Assembly (NCBI GenBank): GCA_964585935.1
Contig: CAZPFO010000001.1
Coordinates: 20,163-84,162, forward strand
From: an uncultured Methanosarcinales archaeon
Lineage (GTDB): Archaea > Nanobdellota > Nanobdellia > Woesearchaeales > GW2011-AR4
Direction of reading: 5' to 3'
Length of the DNA: 64,000 nucleotides
The position numbers and the translations under genes were made by a program. Of this stretch, positions 33,893 to 38,625 are shown piece after piece. The notes under the pieces were generated by a model, which had not been told where the DNA came from, ran no database searches, and saw only the letters and a list, made by a program, of their open reading frames with translations. Within the stretch, counting starts at the first letter, position 1. The number at the start of each line of letters is the position of its first letter.

Positions 33893-34193
33893 TTTCTTCT
33901 CTAACCTTCTCCTTTGAGTTTAGGATTAGCATATCTTCTTTGTATTTGTTATTCTTAATCTCTTTCTCAACTTTCTTCTTATCAACTTTTTCAGAGTTTA
34001 CTATCTCTGCAAGCTCCATTGAAACCACCCTTATTTCTTCACTACTCATTAGTAGATATGTTATATATAAAGGTTTCGGTTTTGGTTAAATATCTGGGAA
34101 AATAGGGTAGCAACAATAGAGAAGATGAGGTATTATGAAGTGAGAATGTAATGTGGTTCTAGACGAATGTGAGAAAGTTGAAAGAAAGCTAGA

Positions 34194-34427
34194 CTATCCA
34201 ACATACTTAAAACGAGGAACTTCTTTACCATCAACATTAACATATTCAAGAAACATCTTTTTTGGTCTAACCCATAAAGCATTTTTGCCAAACTCTTCTG
34301 AATCATAAAGAGCGCGATATACTACCAATTCTTCCAAAGTTTCGCTGTGTCTTGCGACACTAATAACTTCATAGAATTTGCCTTTGTAATGTTGATACTT
34401 TCCTAGCTTTAAGTCTTCCATAAGCAT
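34194..34427 (-). CDS. DUF1653 family protein (cassette 1)
   Basis: 77 aa. GKYQHYKGKFYEVISVARHSETLEELVVYRALY...LWVRPKKMF is the DUF1653 signature. Confidence 0.75.
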   Translation of the reverse strand: MLMEDLKLGKYQHYKGKFYEVISVARHSETLEELVVYRALYDSEEFGKNALWVRPKKMFLEYVNVDGKEVPRFKYVG

Positions 34428-34473
34428 AGATAAGTTTACATTATTAAAAACTTTTCGGGAGGGCTTTCTTTTT

Positions 34474-34546
34474 ATTGAACATGATTATTGTTAGTCGCAC
34501 CGACCCCTACGAAGTTGGCGAGGCAAAGAGCGTAAGCGACGAAGAG
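34474..34546 (+). repeat. cassette junction A: core ATTGAAC-N9-GTTAGTC plus a GC-rich insert (accgacccctacga subfamily)
   Basis: attgaacatgattattgttagtcgc followed by accgacccctacgaagttggcgaggcaaagagcgtaagcgacgaagag. It shares the 16-nt gcaccgacccctacga with junction D. Confidence 0.7.
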
Positions 34547-34605
34547 TTAATTTTGAGATGCTTCTATCAATAATTTTAAATATAAGTTAGTGATATAATA
34601 AAATA

Positions 34606-34821
34606 ATGGAAATATTGTACATACAAATTGGTGGAATCGCATTATTGATTGGTATATTCTTATATATGGCATTAAAGCCAAGATATTGCCCTAAGTGCAA
34701 TACCAAATTACCAATTTGGAGGAAACCTAAGAATAAAAGGCAAGCATTATGGGGTGGAGATACATGTCCAAATTGTGGGTGTGAAGTTGATAGAAAAGGA
34801 AAAGAAGTTACTAATTCTTAA
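34606..34821 (+). CDS. small membrane protein with a C-terminal zinc ribbon (cassette 2)
   Basis: 71 aa with an N-terminal TM (IGGIALLIGIFLYMAL). The Cys pairs are CPKC...CPNC. Confidence 0.6.
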   Translation: MEILYIQIGGIALLIGIFLYMALKPRYCPKCNTKLPIWRKPKNKRQALWGGDTCPNCGCEVDRKGKEVTNS

Positions 34822-34835
34822 GCATCTCAAAATTA

Positions 34836-34917
34836 ATTGAACATAAAACTTGTTAAATGCCCCGACGACCGAAGGGAGGAGAGCGCAGCGTGGTCGAGGA
34901 GCGAAGCGACGAAGAAG
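34836..34917 (+). repeat. cassette junction B: core ATTGAAC-N9-GTTAAAT plus a 57-nt GC-rich insert (cccga / gagagcgcagcgtgg subfamily)
   Basis: attgaacataaaacttgttaaatgc followed by cccgacgaccgaagggaggagagcgcagcgtggtcgaggagcgaagcgacgaagaag. Confidence 0.7.
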
Positions 34918-35040
34918 TTCAAAAAAGGCCGTAAAATAAAGGACAGAGTCCGATTAAGTAAAAGGAGAAAGAGCCCCAGAAAATTGATACTCAATTTCAA
35001 ATTAAAAAGATTTAAATAGATGTAATTTTTAATTTAAAAC

Positions 35041-35559
35041 ATGAAAAAGATATTTACTTTAATTTTATTGGTAATTCTCTTTGTAACTTCATGTGAAGGG
35101 GAAATTAAAGAAATTAAAATAGACAATCTTAGTGATACATTAACTTTAAAAAAATCTTTGGTTTGTCCAATACAAGGAACAGACCCAACAGGAAAGATAG
35201 TCAAAACTACTATATATATTGAGGATAAAAAGGCAAGAATTGAAACAGATTACACAAATGAAAAAACCTACACAATATATACCAAGAAGTTATTATATGT
35301 TTGGGGGGATGCTTCAAACCAGGGAGAAATATTAAATCTAGAGTTTTTTGAAGAATTGCAAGGAAAAGACTATGATGAAGTGCAATCATTAAAGGAATAT
35401 TTAGATGGAATTGATGAATCTTCTACTATGAGAGAACCAAATTCTGAAGTAATCTGTAAAATTCAGTATATAGATCCATCTCAATTCGTTCCACCAAGCA
35501 ATATAGATTTTAAAGATATGGTAGATGAATTAGGGTCGGCATTGGAACAAGTTGGATAA
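35041..35559 (+). CDS. putative lipoprotein / secreted protein (cassette 3)
   Basis: 172 aa. The signal is MKKIFTLILLVILFVTSCEG, with a lipobox-like Cys. Confidence 0.6.
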   Translation: MKKIFTLILLVILFVTSCEGEIKEIKIDNLSDTLTLKKSLVCPIQGTDPTGKIVKTTIYIEDKKARIETDYTNEKTYTIYTKKLLYVWGDASNQGEILNLEFFEELQGKDYDEVQSLKEYLDGIDESSTMREPNSEVICKIQYIDPSQFVPPSNIDFKDMVDELGSALEQVG

Positions 35560-35610
35560 ATTAAATCTATATTTTCTGGGGCTCTATTAAAAATAAAAGG
35601 CCTTTTTTGA

Positions 35611-35700
35611 ATTGCATTTAACCCTTGTTAAGTGACCCGAGTGGAGCGAAGCGGAACGAGAGCGCAGCGTGGCAAGGCGGAGTGAAACGGAGCCGCAGAG
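35611..35700 (+). repeat. cassette junction C: ATTGCATTTAAC-CCTT-GTTAAGT plus a 65-nt GC-rich insert
   Basis: attgcatttaacccttgttaagtga followed by cccgagtggagcgaagcggaacgagagcgcagcgtggcaaggcggagtgaaacggagccgcagag. Confidence 0.7.
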
Positions 35701-35718
35701 TATCACTCAAAAATTTGC

Positions 35719-36048
35719 TTATTTAACTGTACAAATATTATTTATGCATCTTAGTTCATATGCGCAACTTACTTTGCAGTATGGTCCATCATAATTCTTA
35801 CATTTCTTCTCTTGAGCATCCAAATATTTTTGCCAGTGAATTTTGTTTATCGGCACACCACAATCGCAAGAACATTCTACCATTGCCATAATACAATCTT
35901 CATCCACTTCGCAAACTTGATCTGTAGAATTAACTTCAATCGGTTTATTAATGGGTTTAATGTTTTTGGATGGGAAATAATATACTATAATTATTCCGAT
36001 AACTAAAATCAGCAAAAAAATTATTATAAATTTTTTGATTCCTTTCAT
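35719..36048 (-). CDS. secreted/anchored Cys-rich small protein (cassette 4)
   Basis: 109 aa with an N-terminal TM (FIIIFLLILVIGIIIVYYF). The ectodomain has 11 Cys (CEVDEDCIMAMVECSCDCG...). Confidence 0.6.
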   Translation of the reverse strand: MKGIKKFIIIFLLILVIGIIIVYYFPSKNIKPINKPIEVNSTDQVCEVDEDCIMAMVECSCDCGVPINKIHWQKYLDAQEKKCKNYDGPYCKVSCAYELRCINNICTVK

Positions 36049-36107
36049 AATGTTAGATATATTATAGATTATATTTAAACATTTCTAAAGCAAATTTTTG
36101 AGTGATA

Positions 36108-36228
36108 TTTCACTTAACGCTTGTTCAACGCACCGACCCCTACGAGCGTTACTTCACAAAGTACAGAGCGAGTTTTTCTATAGAAAAAGAAGCTCTGAGC
36201 GGAGTGGGGGGAGGGGAGTTAAGGCGCA
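36108..36228 (+). repeat. cassette junction D: ACTTAAC-GCTT-GTTCAAC plus a 97-nt GC-rich insert with G-tracts
   Basis: tttcacttaacgcttgttcaacgc followed by accgacccctacgagcg...gagcggagtggggggaggggagttaaggcgca. Confidence 0.7.
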
Positions 36229-36270
36229 GGCGGTTCACAAGTTAAGAAACAGAAGAAAGGAAAGAATTTT

Positions 36271-36513
36271 TTATTTTTTAATCTTATTAATAATAAATCT
36301 TACAAGTTTATATAATAGAAATAATATGGTCGCATAAAAAAGAAAACCAATTACATATACATAAAAATCGAAAAAACTTGGGGGTCCTCTACAAAATCCT
36401 CCCTTACACACATATGTGAGTTTATCAATAAAAAAAGCAACAACGCCAAAGATTAAAGAAAGTATGATAATCAATACGAAGGGTTGTTTTTTAAAAAATT
36501 CTTTCCAATTCAT
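36271..36513 (-). CDS. small two-TM membrane protein (cassette 5)
   Basis: The start is taken at the ATG at 36513 (MNWKEFFKKQPFVLIIILSLIFGVVAFF...). The ORF track extends to a TTG at 36555, inside the flanking repeat. Confidence 0.55.
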   Translation of the reverse strand: MNWKEFFKKQPFVLIIILSLIFGVVAFFIDKLTYVCKGGFCRGPPSFFDFYVYVIGFLFYATILFLLYKLVRFIINKIKK

Positions 36514-36690
36514 AATTATTATAGAATATAGCAAGTATAAATAAGTTTCTGTCAAGTGAACCGCCGAGCATTAATTGCGTTGAACCGTACATATACGCAA
36601 AACCTTAATATTTGCCTTTTTAGGCTCTGAAATGGCTGAATTTTTAAGTCCAGAGGCTGATTTTTCGTATCTACTTAAAAATAAAGAAAA

Positions 36691-37541: not shown

Positions 37542-37775
37542 TAGGATAAGCCGCCGGAGCTACGACAGAAAACTTTATACTCAATAGGCAAAGTTTTCTG
37601 TTCCTTGCTTCTCTTACGAAGCGCTTAGTCTCCGCTCCAATTTAGGCATCTTTGCAACGCTGTTGCGAAGGGTTAACCTCCCCCCTAGTGCACAACTGGG
37701 TAGGTGTCCCACCCCCGCACATGAGATGGTTTGTGCTTCACCTGCGATTGCCTATATTGATGGCGGCTTATCCTA
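37542..37775. other. 234-nt GC-rich element with a 14-bp perfect terminal inverted repeat (structured ncRNA or MITE; identity unresolved)
   Basis: taggataagccgcc...ggcggcttatccta. Internal hairpins include acagaaaacttt...aaagttttctgt, gcaac-agc-gttgc and gggtgggacacctaccc. It is roughly 50% GC in a ~30% GC genome, and it fills the only large gap in a tightly overlapping operon. Confidence 0.55.
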
Positions 37776-37788
37776 ATCTGACTGTAAA

Positions 37789-38625
37789 TTATTTTTTCTC
37801 GCTCATCTTTTTTATCAGGTAATTGCTTTCCTCTTTTGCAGTTTCTTTGAAATTGCCCATATATTCGGCTGCTTTTTTGAAATATTCAACAAAGCCATCA
37901 ACATCTTTTTTTTCTATATGCCTGAATAATTCTTTTGATGATTCCATAAGCTCCTTAACTGATTCTACAGTATGGGGGTTTAATATTTCTATTTCAGCGT
38001 AGAGCATTGGATCTTGCGCCATGACCCTTCCAATCATATCCATCTTTAGCTTATACACAGGACTTGTATAATCAAGGCTCTCTTTAATATCTACCCCTTG
38101 TTTCATCAAAGTATTTGCTATAACAATTGCATTAAAGTGGGTAAGGCCCTGGATTGTTGCCATTATTTTATCATGCTTTTCCGGAGTGGAAATTTTTATC
38201 CTGACTCCTGCTTTCTCAAAAACCTTCTCAAAAACTCCAGTGTATTTTCCAGGTCTTGATTTTAATAAAATCACAGTCTGCCCCTTGATTGAGTCAATAT
38301 CCGGGCTGAACATTGGATGAATTCCAAGAACTTCGCACTCAGATTTCATCATTGCTTCGATAATGGGTGTTTTAATTGACGTCAAGTCCATTAAAATCTG
38401 CCCGGGCCTTGTAAAAGGGATAACCTCCTTGATAACATCTGCTGTTATCCCTATAGGCACTGAAAAAACCACTGCATCGCACTGCTTGACCAACTCTTTA
38501 TTGGTTATCTTTGTGGTTCTTCCTGAAATAATAACTTCAAAATTACCTTGTTTTAATAAAAAATCCCTAAACCAGCTTCCTGTCCTGCCCCTTCCGCCAA
38601 TAATCCCGACTTTAATCTTCTTCAT
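37789..38625 (-). CDS. tyrA: prephenate dehydrogenase
   Basis: KVGIIGGRGRTGSWF...VLGIHPMFSP...ATIQGLTHF. Confidence 0.8.
   Translation of the reverse strand: MKKIKVGIIGGRGRTGSWFRDFLLKQGNFEVIISGRTTKITNKELVKQCDAVVFSVPIGITADVIKEVIPFTRPGQILMDLTSIKTPIIEAMMKSECEVLGIHPMFSPDIDSIKGQTVILLKSRPGKYTGVFEKVFEKAGVRIKISTPEKHDKIMATIQGLTHFNAIVIANTLMKQGVDIKESLDYTSPVYKLKMDMIGRVMAQDPMLYAEIEILNPHTVESVKELMESSKELFRHIEKKDVDGFVEYFKKAAEYMGNFKETAKEESNYLIKKMSEKK

What the first reader, a model, noticed from the sequence alone, without database searches (positions are those of the whole stretch)
34861..35700. GC-rich 57-97-nt inserts occupy only one arm of each cassette palindrome, in two cases precisely replacing the dinucleotide aa
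I compared each cassette's two arms. For cassette 3, gttaaatgc[57 nt]ttcaaaaaaggcc (34852-34930) matches the reverse complement of 35599-35622, gttaaatgc-aa-ttcaaaaaaggcc. For cassette 4, gttaagtga[65 nt]tatcactcaaaaatttgc (35627-35718) matches the reverse complement of 36090-36118, gttaagtga-aa-tatcactcaaaaatttgc. For cassette 5, gttcaacgc[97 nt]ggcggttcac matches gttcaacgc-aattaatgctc-ggcggttcac. The inserts are always on the array-left arm, are purine-rich on the plus strand, and are ~60% GC in a ~30% GC genome. They fall into two subfamilies: one starts cccga and contains gagagcgcagcgtgg, and the other starts accgacccctacga. They begin ~25 nt downstream of A/T-rich TATA-like stretches. They could be small transcribed RNAs, asymmetric markers that set recombination polarity (like the extrahelical bases of attC), or tiny mobile insertions. 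The ORF-track ORFs over them (34837-35019 and 36098-36337) do not look like real genes.
Basis: seen in the sequence. Interest (0 to 1): 0.6.

Follow-up and report, generated by a model that had tools for sequence, protein, structure and literature searches.

The report
Mini-hairpin DNA module beside cassette recombination sites
The GC-rich "inserts" are copies of a conserved accessory DNA module that sits in one fixed slot of the recombination sites of an integron-like gene-cassette system found in many ultra-small archaea and bacteria, and it probably folds into tiny hairpins on only one DNA strand.

Summary
Every cassette in the array (34.1-36.6 kb) has the same layout: 9-nt GTT box, GC- and purine-rich insert, private inverted repeat, cargo, inverted repeat, TT, 9-nt ..AAC box. 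The insert always faces the dinucleotide TT.

The inserts are not local insertion events. The core of insert 3 (GGAGGAGAGCGCAGCGTGG) occurs in more than 100 species-representative genomes, always butt-joined to a GTT box of an attC-like cassette site. These include CPR bacteria, Woesearchaeota and other DPANN archaea, ANME/Methanosarcinales and others. In 11 of 12 loci a XerA/IntI-like tyrosine recombinase gene lies downstream on the same strand.

The module is a string of d(NN-GNA-NN) mini-hairpins:
- 2.6 per module on the purine-rich strand, 0.02 on the other strand, 0.36 in shuffles.
- Compensatory changes support the pairing (0 of 500 shuffles reach the observed value).

The slot is optional. 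In 16 of 74 cassettes found independently of module sequence it holds only TG.

Best reading: a strand-specific folded-DNA accessory element of the recombination site, acting as an asymmetry or strand marker. Its identity as a site component is well supported (about 0.85). The mechanism is inferred (about 0.4). No Rfam family matches and I found no published description.

The parts
34095..34177 (+). Possible degenerate, AT-rich but 69% purine module in the slot of cassette 1. It lies between GTTAAATATC (34085-34094) and IR-L1.
   Evidence: Weak: assigned by position only.
34178..34474 (.). Cassette 1 body: IR-L1 34178-34189, DUF1653 gene 34194-34427 (-), IR-R1 34463-34474.
34477..34498 (+). 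Junction J0: box1 GAACATGAT, spacer TATT, box2 GTTAGTCGC.
   Evidence: (D1)
34499..34546 (+). Insert 2 (48 nt). It is a chimera: type-B head ACCGACCCCTACGA plus a type-A-like tail ..GCGTAAGCGACGAAGAG. It has one GNA mini-hairpin motif (ACGAAGT).
34547..34836 (.). Cassette 2 body: IR-L2 34547-34563, zinc-ribbon ORF 34606-34821 (+), IR-R2 34820-34836 (17/17 complementary).
   Evidence: (I11)
34839..34860 (+). Junction J1: box1 GAACATAAA, spacer ACTT, box2 GTTAAATGC.
34861..34917 (+). Insert 3 (57 nt): a full type-A module, CCCGACGA-[CCGAAGG]-GAGGAGA-[GCGCAGC]-GTGG-TCGAGGA-[GCGAAGC]-GACGAAGAAG.
   Evidence: nhmmer E=1.7e-13 to the family profile. Three mini-hairpin motifs. Contig depth 90-140 against about 7 baseline.
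34918..35611 (.). Cassette 3 body: IR-L3 34918-34930, ORF 35041-35559 (+, 172 aa, no Pfam hit), IR-R3 35599-35611.
35614..35635 (+). Junction J2: box1 GCATTTAAC (9/9 complement of the box2 at 34852-34860), spacer CCTT, box2 GTTAAGTGA.
35636..35700 (+). Insert 4 (65 nt): a variant type-A module. The first 40 nt are 37/40 identical to a module in locus L054. It has four mini-hairpin motifs: GCGAAGC, CGGAACG, GCGCAGC, GTGAAAC.
35701..36107 (.). Cassette 4 body: IR-L4 35701-35720, ORF 35719-36048 (-, 109 aa), IR-R4 36088-36107 (20/20).
   Evidence: (I3)
36110..36131 (+). Junction J3: box1 TCACTTAAC (9/9 complement of 35627-35635), spacer GCTT, box2 GTTCAACGC.
36132..36218 (+). Insert 5 (87 nt): a type-B module. 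CCCCTAC..GTGGGGGG forms a closing stem around a nested hairpin CAGAGC..TTTTTCTATAGAAAAA..GCTCTG.
   Evidence: A 91%-identical second copy exists in the same metagenome.
36219..36574 (.). Cassette 5 body: IR-L5 36219-36238, small ORF on the - strand, IR-R5 36556-36574.
36577..36606 (+). Array end: box1 GCGTTGAAC (9/9 complement of 36123-36131), spacer CGTA, and an attI-like remnant CATATACGCAAAACCTT. The remnant resembles the sites that precede the recombinase gene in relatives.

Best explanation
What the inserts are. They are this genome's copies of an accessory module that belongs to the recombination sites of an integron-like cassette system.

Cassette layout. Each cassette reads: GTT box (R''-type arm), module, private inverted repeat, cargo, inverted repeat, TT, ..AAC box (R'-type arm, complementary to the cassette's own GTT box). 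When the two ends of a cassette meet, in an excised circle or a folded single strand, they form a long hairpin. In that hairpin the module is a one-sided bulge opposite TT, just outside the R'' arm.

The common (type A) module is CCCGA-CGA-[C(T/C)-GAA-(A/G)G]-GAGGAGA-[GC-GCA-GC]-GKGG, followed by a variable tail with further GNA mini-hairpins or a hairpin, ending (A/G)AG|TT.

Proposed mechanism (inferred). On single-stranded DNA only the purine-rich strand folds into these extraordinarily stable DNA mini-hairpins. This strand runs in the same direction as the recombinase gene, so by analogy it is the integron 'bottom' strand. That makes the otherwise symmetric hairpin asymmetric. It would mark or stabilise the strand and orientation that the XerA/IntI-like recombinase uses. 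This recombinase lacks the IntI-specific domain. The role would resemble that of the extrahelical bases, unpaired spacer and variable loop of attC.

Shown: the module's position, family-wide recurrence, strand bias, covariation, and orientation relative to the recombinase gene.
Inferred: that the module works as single-stranded DNA, and its effect on strand or polarity choice.

My odds: about 0.85 that it is a component of the recombination site, and about 0.4 for this mechanism. The confidence given (0.45) is for the whole statement, mechanism included.
For: - Recurrence. 105 of them have the module context.
- Fixed position. 88/95 modules start exactly 9 nt after GTT, 86/95 begin CCCGACGA, and they follow 25 different GTT boxes.
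- Same grammar elsewhere. It is found in L134 (6/6 cassettes), L151 and L026, and in 54 cassettes found without reference to module sequence.
- Strand bias. GNA mini-hairpin motifs number 2.62 per module on the purine-rich strand, 0.02 on the complement and 0.36 in shuffles. The same bias appears in the variable loops of the long sites: 1.27 against 0.015.
- Covariation. T:A changes to C:G in 67 and 25 of 95 instances. GC/GC changes to GT/AC and AT/AT. 97.7% of cells are paired, with 28 double-change cells against 8.0 +/- 2.1 in shuffles, 0/500 reaching that.
- Recombinase. Its gene lies downstream on the same strand in 11/12 loci, with an attI-like site in between. It scores 234 bits on NF040815 (cut-off 220) and 202 on the IntI model TIGR02249 (cut-off 265).
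- Known chemistry. d(GCGNAGC) melts at 70-76 C and only GNA loops form such hairpins (PMC13037366).
- Local abundance. Depth over the core in the source metagenome is 90-140 against about 7.
Against: - The slot is empty (TG) in 16 of 74 cassettes, so the module is not required by every cassette.
- Types B and D share the slot but not the sequence. Type B (insert 5) has no GNA motif.
- Standard DNA nearest-neighbour folding gives both strands similar energies: -21.8 against -21.5 and -28.5 against -27.0 kcal/mol. The parameters carry no mini-hairpin bonus.
- High sequence identity across phyla could partly reflect recent horizontal spread of cassettes. The non-coding ends of one restriction-modification cassette are equally conserved.
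- Strong sequence conservation, not only structural conservation, of GAGGAGA and CCCGA hints at a sequence-specific partner.
- There is no recombinase gene in the window.
- No experiment or read-level evidence shows that this strand is the one recombined.
Confidence: 0.45

Rival explanations
1. Accessory protein-binding sequence. The conserved core (CCCGACGA..GAGGAGAGCGCAGCGKGG) would be bound sequence-specifically by the recombinase's N-terminal part or by a partner protein. It would then control directionality, as the cer/psi accessory sequences do for XerCD (comparison from my own knowledge).
For: - Near-invariant sequence outside the paired positions.
- A fixed position next to one arm of the core site.
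Against: - No conserved partner gene was seen. Besides the recombinase, only cargo-like families recur.
- The module does not contain the TATACGAAGTT-like motif shared by the attI-like and L arms.
- Other module types with unrelated sequence occupy the same slot.
Confidence: 0.15
2. Single-strand initiation signal. The mini-hairpin string would act as a priming site, or an SSB-free landing site, for complementary-strand synthesis on an excised single-stranded cassette circle. The comparison is with the phage G4 origin and RSF1010 ssiA.
For: - Mini-hairpins of exactly these kinds (GCGNAGC, CCGAAGG) occur at ssDNA priming sites, and that region escapes SSB (PMC13037366).
- The motifs are strictly strand-specific.
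Against: - Excised cassettes of integrons are not known to replicate.
- There is no evidence for circles here.
- The module is optional.
- Primase specificity differs between Bacteria and Archaea, yet the same module occurs in both.
Confidence: 0.12
3. Selfish or near-neutral micro-element. The segment between two GTT crossover-like points (TT..box2 - module - G|TT) would behave as a cargo-less micro-cassette that hitch-hikes and reassorts, with no function for the host cassette.
For: - The same module haplotype precedes different cargos, and the same cargo follows different tails.
- Empty slots exist.
- Insert 2 is a chimera and insert 5 carries a nested insertion.
Against: - Compensatory changes show selection on pairing.
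- The module is never found away from a GTT box.
- It has no terminal repeats and no target duplication.
- Its orientation is fixed relative to the recombinase gene.
Confidence: 0.13
4. RNA-level element. The module would be a small RNA or a 5' leader. It contains a Shine-Dalgarno-like AAAGGAGG followed 10 nt later by GTG and a 2-8-codon mini-ORF, and could affect expression of the cassette or of the downstream recombinase.
For: - AAGGAGG plus GTG is present in roughly 60% of copies, and several tails end in TGA just before the GTT.
- The modules are on the sense strand of the recombinase gene.
Against: - About 40% of copies have GGG instead of GTG.
- Cargo genes lie in either orientation and more than 100 nt away.
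- No Rfam family matches.
- No conserved promoter is present.
- Two-base-pair GNA hairpins are a DNA feature, not an RNA feature (my own knowledge).
- No RNA data are available.
Confidence: 0.07

Closest known systems
Integron attC sites: R''/R' boxes, extrahelical bases, unpaired central spacer and variable terminal structure, which set bottom-strand choice
   Same: - ..AAC and GTT.. boxes.
- The cassette start is complementary to its own R'' box.
- In relatives, long sites with an inner L pair and a branched loop.
- Cassette arrays next to a tyrosine recombinase gene and an attI-like site.
- Strand-asymmetric structural features.
   Different: - The associated recombinase is XerA-like and falls below the IntI model cut-off.
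- In this window the sites are reduced to box - 4 nt - box.
- The R stem is prolonged by a private outer inverted repeat.
- The asymmetry element is a 31-94-nt conserved module outside the R'' arm, not one or two flipped-out bases inside the site.
DNA mini-hairpins d(GCGNAGC)/d(GCGNNAGC) (Hirao and colleagues; PMC13037366), for example at the phage G4 origin and RSF1010 ssiA
   Same: The same heptamers (GCGAAGC, GCGCAGC, GCGTAGC, CCGAAGG) with GNA loops closed by two Watson-Crick pairs, on one strand only.
   Different: Here 2-4 of them are strung together inside a recombination site. Nothing links them to priming.
Accessory sequences of Xer sites (cer, psi), and folded single-stranded attP of CTX phage used by XerCD (from my own knowledge)
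   Same: A Xer-type enzyme, a core site with two inverted arms, and extra DNA on one side or a folded single strand that imposes directionality.
   Different: - No accessory proteins are known here.
- The module is much shorter (about 55 nt against about 180 bp).
- The cassettes are arrayed as in an integron.
Vibrio cholerae repeats (VCR) and other homogeneous attC families of sedentary chromosomal integrons
   Same: A highly similar repeat at every cassette boundary. It breaks short-read assemblies and raises local depth.
   Different: VCR similarity is species-specific. This module is shared at 90% identity or more by bacteria and archaea of many phyla.

Membership tests
Integron gene cassette / attC site | Inverse core RYYYAAC (R'') and core GTTRRRY (R') bounding the site | tested here: met
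   box1 = GCATTTAAC, TCACTTAAC, GCGTTGAAC. box2 = GTTAAATGC, GTTAAGTGA, GTTCAACGC. 88/95 relatives have GTT at the fixed position.
Integron gene cassette / attC site | The first bases of a cassette are complementary to the R'' box of its own site | tested here: met
   9/9 for cassettes 3, 4 and 5. 6/6 in L134. Not met for cassettes 1 and 2.
Integron gene cassette / attC site | Inner L''/L' pair with extrahelical bases and a variable terminal structure, total length 57-141 nt | tested here: not met
   In the window only 4 nt separate the two boxes. Relatives do have long sites with a 10-bp L pair and a branched loop of about 60 nt. Extrahelical bases were not examined.
Integron gene cassette / attC site | Adjacent IntI integrase carrying the IntI-specific additional domain | tested here: not met
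   No tyrosine recombinase in the 64-kb window. The recombinase next to relatives' arrays scores 202 on TIGR02249 (cut-off 265) and 234 on the XerA model NF040815 (cut-off 220).
Integron gene cassette / attC site | Recombination of the folded bottom strand only | not testable with these tools
   Only indirect evidence: strand-specific motifs and orientation relative to the recombinase gene.
Xer/dif-type core site and Xer-mobilised modules | Two inverted arms of about 11 bp around a 6-8-bp central region, bound by a Xer recombinase | tested here: inconclusive
   box1 - 4 nt - box2 can be read as 8-6-8 (..TAA C-NNTT-G TTA..). Arms covary within a cassette, which argues for pairing rather than simple protein recognition. 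Binding was not testable.
MITE or small insertion element (applied to the insert itself) | Terminal inverted repeats, a target-site duplication, and copies at unrelated sites | tested here: not met
   No terminal repeats or duplication at the insert ends. All copies sit in the same slot after a GTT box.
Described structured RNA families (Rfam 15), including group II intron domains | A match to a covariance model | tested here: not met
   Nothing at the gathering score in the window except one tRNA. Nothing credible at E<=10 on the array or on L026.
DNA mini-hairpin d(NN-GNA-N'N') | A GNA triloop closed by two Watson-Crick pairs | tested here: met
   Motif counts and strand bias and covariation. 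Physical formation is not testable here.

The most novel reading that the evidence does not exclude
The module is a dedicated single-stranded-DNA 'strand selector'. A string of DNA mini-hairpins would let a plain Xer-type recombinase, which lacks the IntI domain that reads the extrahelical bases of attC, tell the two strands or orientations of a cassette hairpin apart. This would operate in a gene-capture system shared by CPR bacteria and DPANN archaea. It would be a second, independent solution to the strand-choice problem of integrons, and the first natural recombination role for GNA mini-hairpins.
Probability: 0.3. Interest if true: 0.8.

Novelty: new variant of a known kind. Interest (0 to 1): 0.6.

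Why it matters
Integrons depend on recognising one folded DNA strand. How that choice is made, and how the system arose from Xer-type enzymes, are open questions.

This module is short, conserved across both prokaryotic domains, strand-specific and optional. It sits at a defined place beside the site of a Xer-like, integron-like system. Because natural cassettes exist with and without it, its effect on folding, strand choice and recombination frequency can be tested directly with oligonucleotides and a suicide-conjugation assay.

It also has a practical consequence. This 40-nt core fragments metagenome assemblies of CPR and DPANN genomes, and it could serve as a probe for cassette arrays that attC models may miss.

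Tried and rejected
The window's own genome could therefore not be searched for further copies or for the recombinase gene.

Models of the site that I rejected
- Canonical attC with the GC-rich insert as the variable loop between L boxes. The insert has no complementary partner, and the 9-nt boxes pair across the cargo, not across the insert.
- Outer inverted repeats as R boxes and the 9-nt boxes as L boxes. Neighbouring boxes are not complementary in cis, but they are 9/9 complementary in trans.
- Fragment of a group II intron (domain V-like CCGTAT..ATACGG). No Rfam intron model matches.
- G-quadruplex in type B. There are only two G-runs.
- Leader peptide. About 40% of copies lack the GTG.

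Searches that led nowhere
- The 15-mer GAGAGCGCAGCGTGG in IMG/VR: 39 chance hits and one real hit, L026.
- Exact-protein look-ups of cassette proteins returned only the same population or nothing.
- No RNA runs hold the stretch.

Not significant
- The trend 'sites with a 4-nt spacer always carry a module' is 0/16 empty slots at minimal sites against about 10/54 occupied slots. It is not significant.
Full report
**1. What is in the window**

The stretch 34.1-36.6 kb holds five small cassettes. Exact positions show the same geometry at every junction:
- a private inverted repeat (IR-R);
- TT;
- a 9-nt box ending in AAC (box1);
- 4 nt;
- a 9-nt box starting GTT (box2);
- a GC-rich insert;
- the partner repeat (IR-L);
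- the cargo.

The inserts are at 34499-34546 (48 nt), 34861-34917 (57 nt), 35636-35700 (65 nt) and 36132-36218 (87 nt). They are 52-68% GC and 62-74% purine on the + strand. The window as a whole is about 30-36% GC.

For cassettes 3, 4 and 5, box2 at the left end is 9/9 complementary to box1 at the right end. The private repeats are 13/13, 20/20 and about 17/20 complementary.

One correction: once its repeat is extended, the cassette-5 insert is 87 nt long and also faces exactly TT. Cassette 2 has the insert as well, but its boxes do not match each other. Cassette 1 has an AT-rich, purine-rich 83 nt in the same slot.

The window comes from a Woesearchaeal (DPANN) genome assembled from hydrothermal-vent metagenomes. 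The window contains no tyrosine recombinase gene.

**2. The inserts are copies of a very widespread module**

Contigs from the source samples laid on the array give a word depth of 90-140 over 34851-34893, against about 7 for the flanks. Many different sequences lie on either side of that core.

A test scan of IMG/VR with a 15-mer gave one true hit, L026. L026 is a 26%-GC contig. In it a restriction-modification cassette is framed in the same way as here:
- left end: GTTATACGC, module, GTTCAAAAAATATTTTTC...;
- right end: ...GAAAAATATTTTTTGAA, TT, GCGTATAAC.

105 of them have the module context.

Among the 80 records listed with titles, 75 are true hits:
- 25 are DPANN (19 Woesearchaeota);
- 21 are CPR/Patescibacteria;
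- 10 are Methanosarcinales, ANME or Methanofastidiosia;
- 6 are Gammaproteobacteria;
- 7 are other bacteria;
- 6 are unclassified.

Binning errors may inflate this breadth.

In 88 of 95 instances the module starts exactly 9 nt after a GTT. 86 of 95 begin CCCGACGA. They follow 25 different 9-mers. The module averages 61% GC and 68% purine, against 28% GC downstream.

How the window's inserts relate to this family:
- Insert 3 matches the family profile at E = 1.7e-13. Its tail is identical to tails in L124 and L148.
- Insert 4 is a variant. Its first 40 nt are 37/40 identical to a module in L054.
- The second subfamily (ACCGACCCCTACGA; inserts 2 and 5) is rare. I found it only here, in a second context in the same metagenome, and in one other Woesearchaeal genome, L075. 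Scans of IMG/VR and of the metagenome collection gave only chance hits.

**3. What the surrounding system is**

In relatives, the gap between box1 of one cassette and box2 of the next holds one of two things. It is either the same 3-5-nt spacer as here, or a long site of about 85 nt. The long site reads ..TAAC-GTYA-L''(10 bp)-branched loop-L'-TT-GTTA... That layout is the order of an integron attC site.

With box1 and box2 read as R-type boxes, the arrays obey the integron rule that a cassette's first bases are complementary to the R'' box of its own site. This holds for 3 of 5 cassettes in the window and 6 of 6 in L134.

All-against-all clustering of ORFs from the 105 loci gave one dominant neighbour, a tyrosine recombinase of 275-300 aa found in 12 loci. 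It scores 234 bits on the XerA/integron-integrase model NF040815 (cut-off 220). It scores only 202 on the integron-integrase model TIGR02249 (cut-off 265).

In 11 of 12 loci this gene lies downstream of the modules on the same strand. Where the gene lies close to the last cassette (six loci inspected), it is separated from that cassette's box1 by an attI-like site (for example TTATATACGAA.., TATATGCGAAAA..). The right end of the window's array, GCGTTGAAC-CGTA-CATATACGCAAAACC, has the same look but no recombinase follows.

Turned so that the recombinase gene points away from the array, as in integrons, the purine-rich strand of the module is the 'bottom' strand. The module then lies just outside the R'' box.

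Earlier notes of this scan describe the same kind of system in other CPR and DPANN genomes and report finding no publication. I treated them as leads. My own tests agree on the architecture.

The archaeal attC sites published by Ghaly et al. (PMC9668308) are canonical attCs and do not contain this module. No paper found in six literature searches describes it.

**4. Anatomy of the module**

The type A module reads CCCGA-CGA-[C(T/C)GAA(A/G)G]-GAGGAGA-[GCGCAGC]-GKGG, followed by a variable tail, and ends (A/G)AG|TT. The bracketed heptamers are d(NN-GNA-N'N') mini-hairpins. The tails carry more of them (GCGAAGC, GCGTAGC, GTGAAAC, ACGAAGT, CCGAAGG) or an ordinary hairpin.

Counts of mini-hairpin motifs:
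- 2.62 per module on the purine-rich strand;
- 0.02 on the complementary strand;
- 0.36 in shuffled modules.

Covariation:
- In hairpin 1 the closing pair is T:A in 67, C:G in 25 and unpaired in 3 of 95 instances.
- In hairpin 2, distinct sequences show GC/GC (52), GT/AC (7) and AT/AT (1), with only 3 of 64 not fully paired.
- On a 54-row alignment, 97.7% of cells pair. There are 28 cells with changes on both sides, against 8.0 +/- 2.1 in shuffles (0/500), and every slid register is far worse.
- Relatedness of the copies inflates such numbers. Even so, double changes occur in all four pairs.

The loops of the long attC-like sites show the same strand bias: 1.27 against 0.015 per site, and 0.38 in shuffles.

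According to the review PMC13037366:
- d(GCGNAGC) melts at 70-76 C;
- only GNA triloops form such hairpins;
- they occur at single-strand priming sites (the G4 origin; RSF1010 ssiA has CCGAAGG), where SSB does not bind.

Two-base-pair triloop hairpins are a DNA property (my own knowledge). Together with the location in a recombination site, this argues for a role as single-stranded DNA rather than RNA.

**5. The slot is optional and modular**

I wrote a cassette finder that uses only three features: box2, its exact complement preceded by TT, and a matching private repeat. It recovered:
- 54 cassettes with a 25-94-nt GC- and purine-rich module;
- 16 with an empty slot holding just TG;
- 4 with other content.

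Besides A and B there is a type D (GGGTGAGCG..GCGCAGCGTCCCC..TTGAG) and longer forms, as in L134.

The same module haplotype precedes different cargos, and one widely spread restriction-modification cassette follows at least six different tails. In the window, insert 2 is a B-head/A-tail chimera and insert 5 carries a nested hairpin.

So sequence is exchanged at both ends of the module: at the box1|box2 junction and at the G|TT that follows the module. All 16 empty slots follow long sites, and none follows a 4-nt spacer. With about 10 minimal sites among 54 occupied slots, this trend is not significant.

**6. Interpretation**

Well supported (about 0.85): the inserts are a standard, optional accessory component of the cassette recombination sites of this system. 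They are not local insertions, not genes, and not a described RNA.

Best mechanistic guess (about 0.4): when the ends of a cassette pair, the module is a one-sided bulge opposite TT, next to the R'' arm. Only the purine-rich strand folds into compact mini-hairpins. This would break the symmetry of the hairpin and so mark or stabilise the strand or orientation that the recombinase uses. That job is done in attC by the extrahelical bases, the unpaired spacer and the loop, which IntI reads partly with a domain that this recombinase appears to lack.

Rivals:
- a sequence-specific accessory binding site (0.15);
- a selfish micro-cassette (0.13);
- a priming or SSB-exclusion signal (0.12);
- an RNA leader with AAGGAGG-N10-GTG (0.07).

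**7. Weaknesses**

- There is no experimental or read-level evidence for single-stranded folding or for strand choice.
- Nearest-neighbour energies do not distinguish the two strands.
- The module is dispensable in some cassettes.
- Identity across phyla may partly reflect recent transfer.
- The window's own genome could not be searched.

Noticed in passing
window 36217-36585: Cassette 5 has about twice the contig depth of its neighbours. One contig of run X1 follows the window to 36584 (GCGTTGAA) and then continues differently (TTCCTCAGC..). A second contig carries a 91%-identical copy of insert 5 behind a different junction (..TCGCATAAT-TCGT-GTTAGT..). So this cassette seems to sit in a second context in the community, with a break at the AA|C of box1.
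   Followed up: partly
window 34970-34997 and 35558-35585: A second, inner inverted repeat (28 nt, 82%) hugs the ORF of cassette 3. In L134 the equivalent inner repeats read ACCGAAAGATTTATAAA / TTTATAAATCTTTCGGT. That looks like an archaeal BRE/TATA promoter at the gene start, with its mirror image at the gene end.
   Followed up: no
L026 1493-4030, and many loci: One cassette encodes an 845-aa restriction-modification-like protein. Its non-coding ends (GTTCAAAAAATATTTTTCGTTC..) are nearly identical in genomes labelled CPR, Omnitrophota, Chlorobium, Methanosarcinales and others, and in an IMG/VR contig. This suggests very recent cross-phylum, possibly cross-domain, spread of a defence cassette.
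   Followed up: partly
loci L048, L055, L059, L063, L065, L068, L125, L130, L131, L144, L157: Cassettes whose module slot holds only TG (box2-TG-IR-L ... IR-R-TT-box1). They are natural 'empty-arm' controls for the module.
   Followed up: partly
window 37542-37790: A GC-rich, hairpin-rich non-coding block of about 230 nt lies between the pheA and tyrA-like genes. It matches no Rfam family at the gathering score.
   Followed up: no
window 1-64000 (composition): GC skew is negative from 1 to about 46 kb and positive from 47 to 59 kb, with the cumulative minimum near 46 kb. Most genes left of that point are on the - strand. If this marks an origin, the purine-rich strand of the array is the leading-strand template. 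That is the orientation reported for the attC bottom strands of most sedentary chromosomal integrons (25/30; PMC5371416).
   Followed up: partly
PMC9668308, data S9: The Aenigmatarchaeota attC used in the published recombination assays has GGAGCGCAGCGG (a GCGCAGC mini-hairpin motif) in its loop, on the bottom strand. Strand-specific GNA mini-hairpins may therefore also occur in canonical attC loops.
   Followed up: no
L151 1172-1265: The attI-like region and the L arms of the long sites share TATACGAAGTT-like words. This is probably the recombinase's arm-recognition motif, and it resembles the arm of loxP (from my own knowledge).
   Followed up: no
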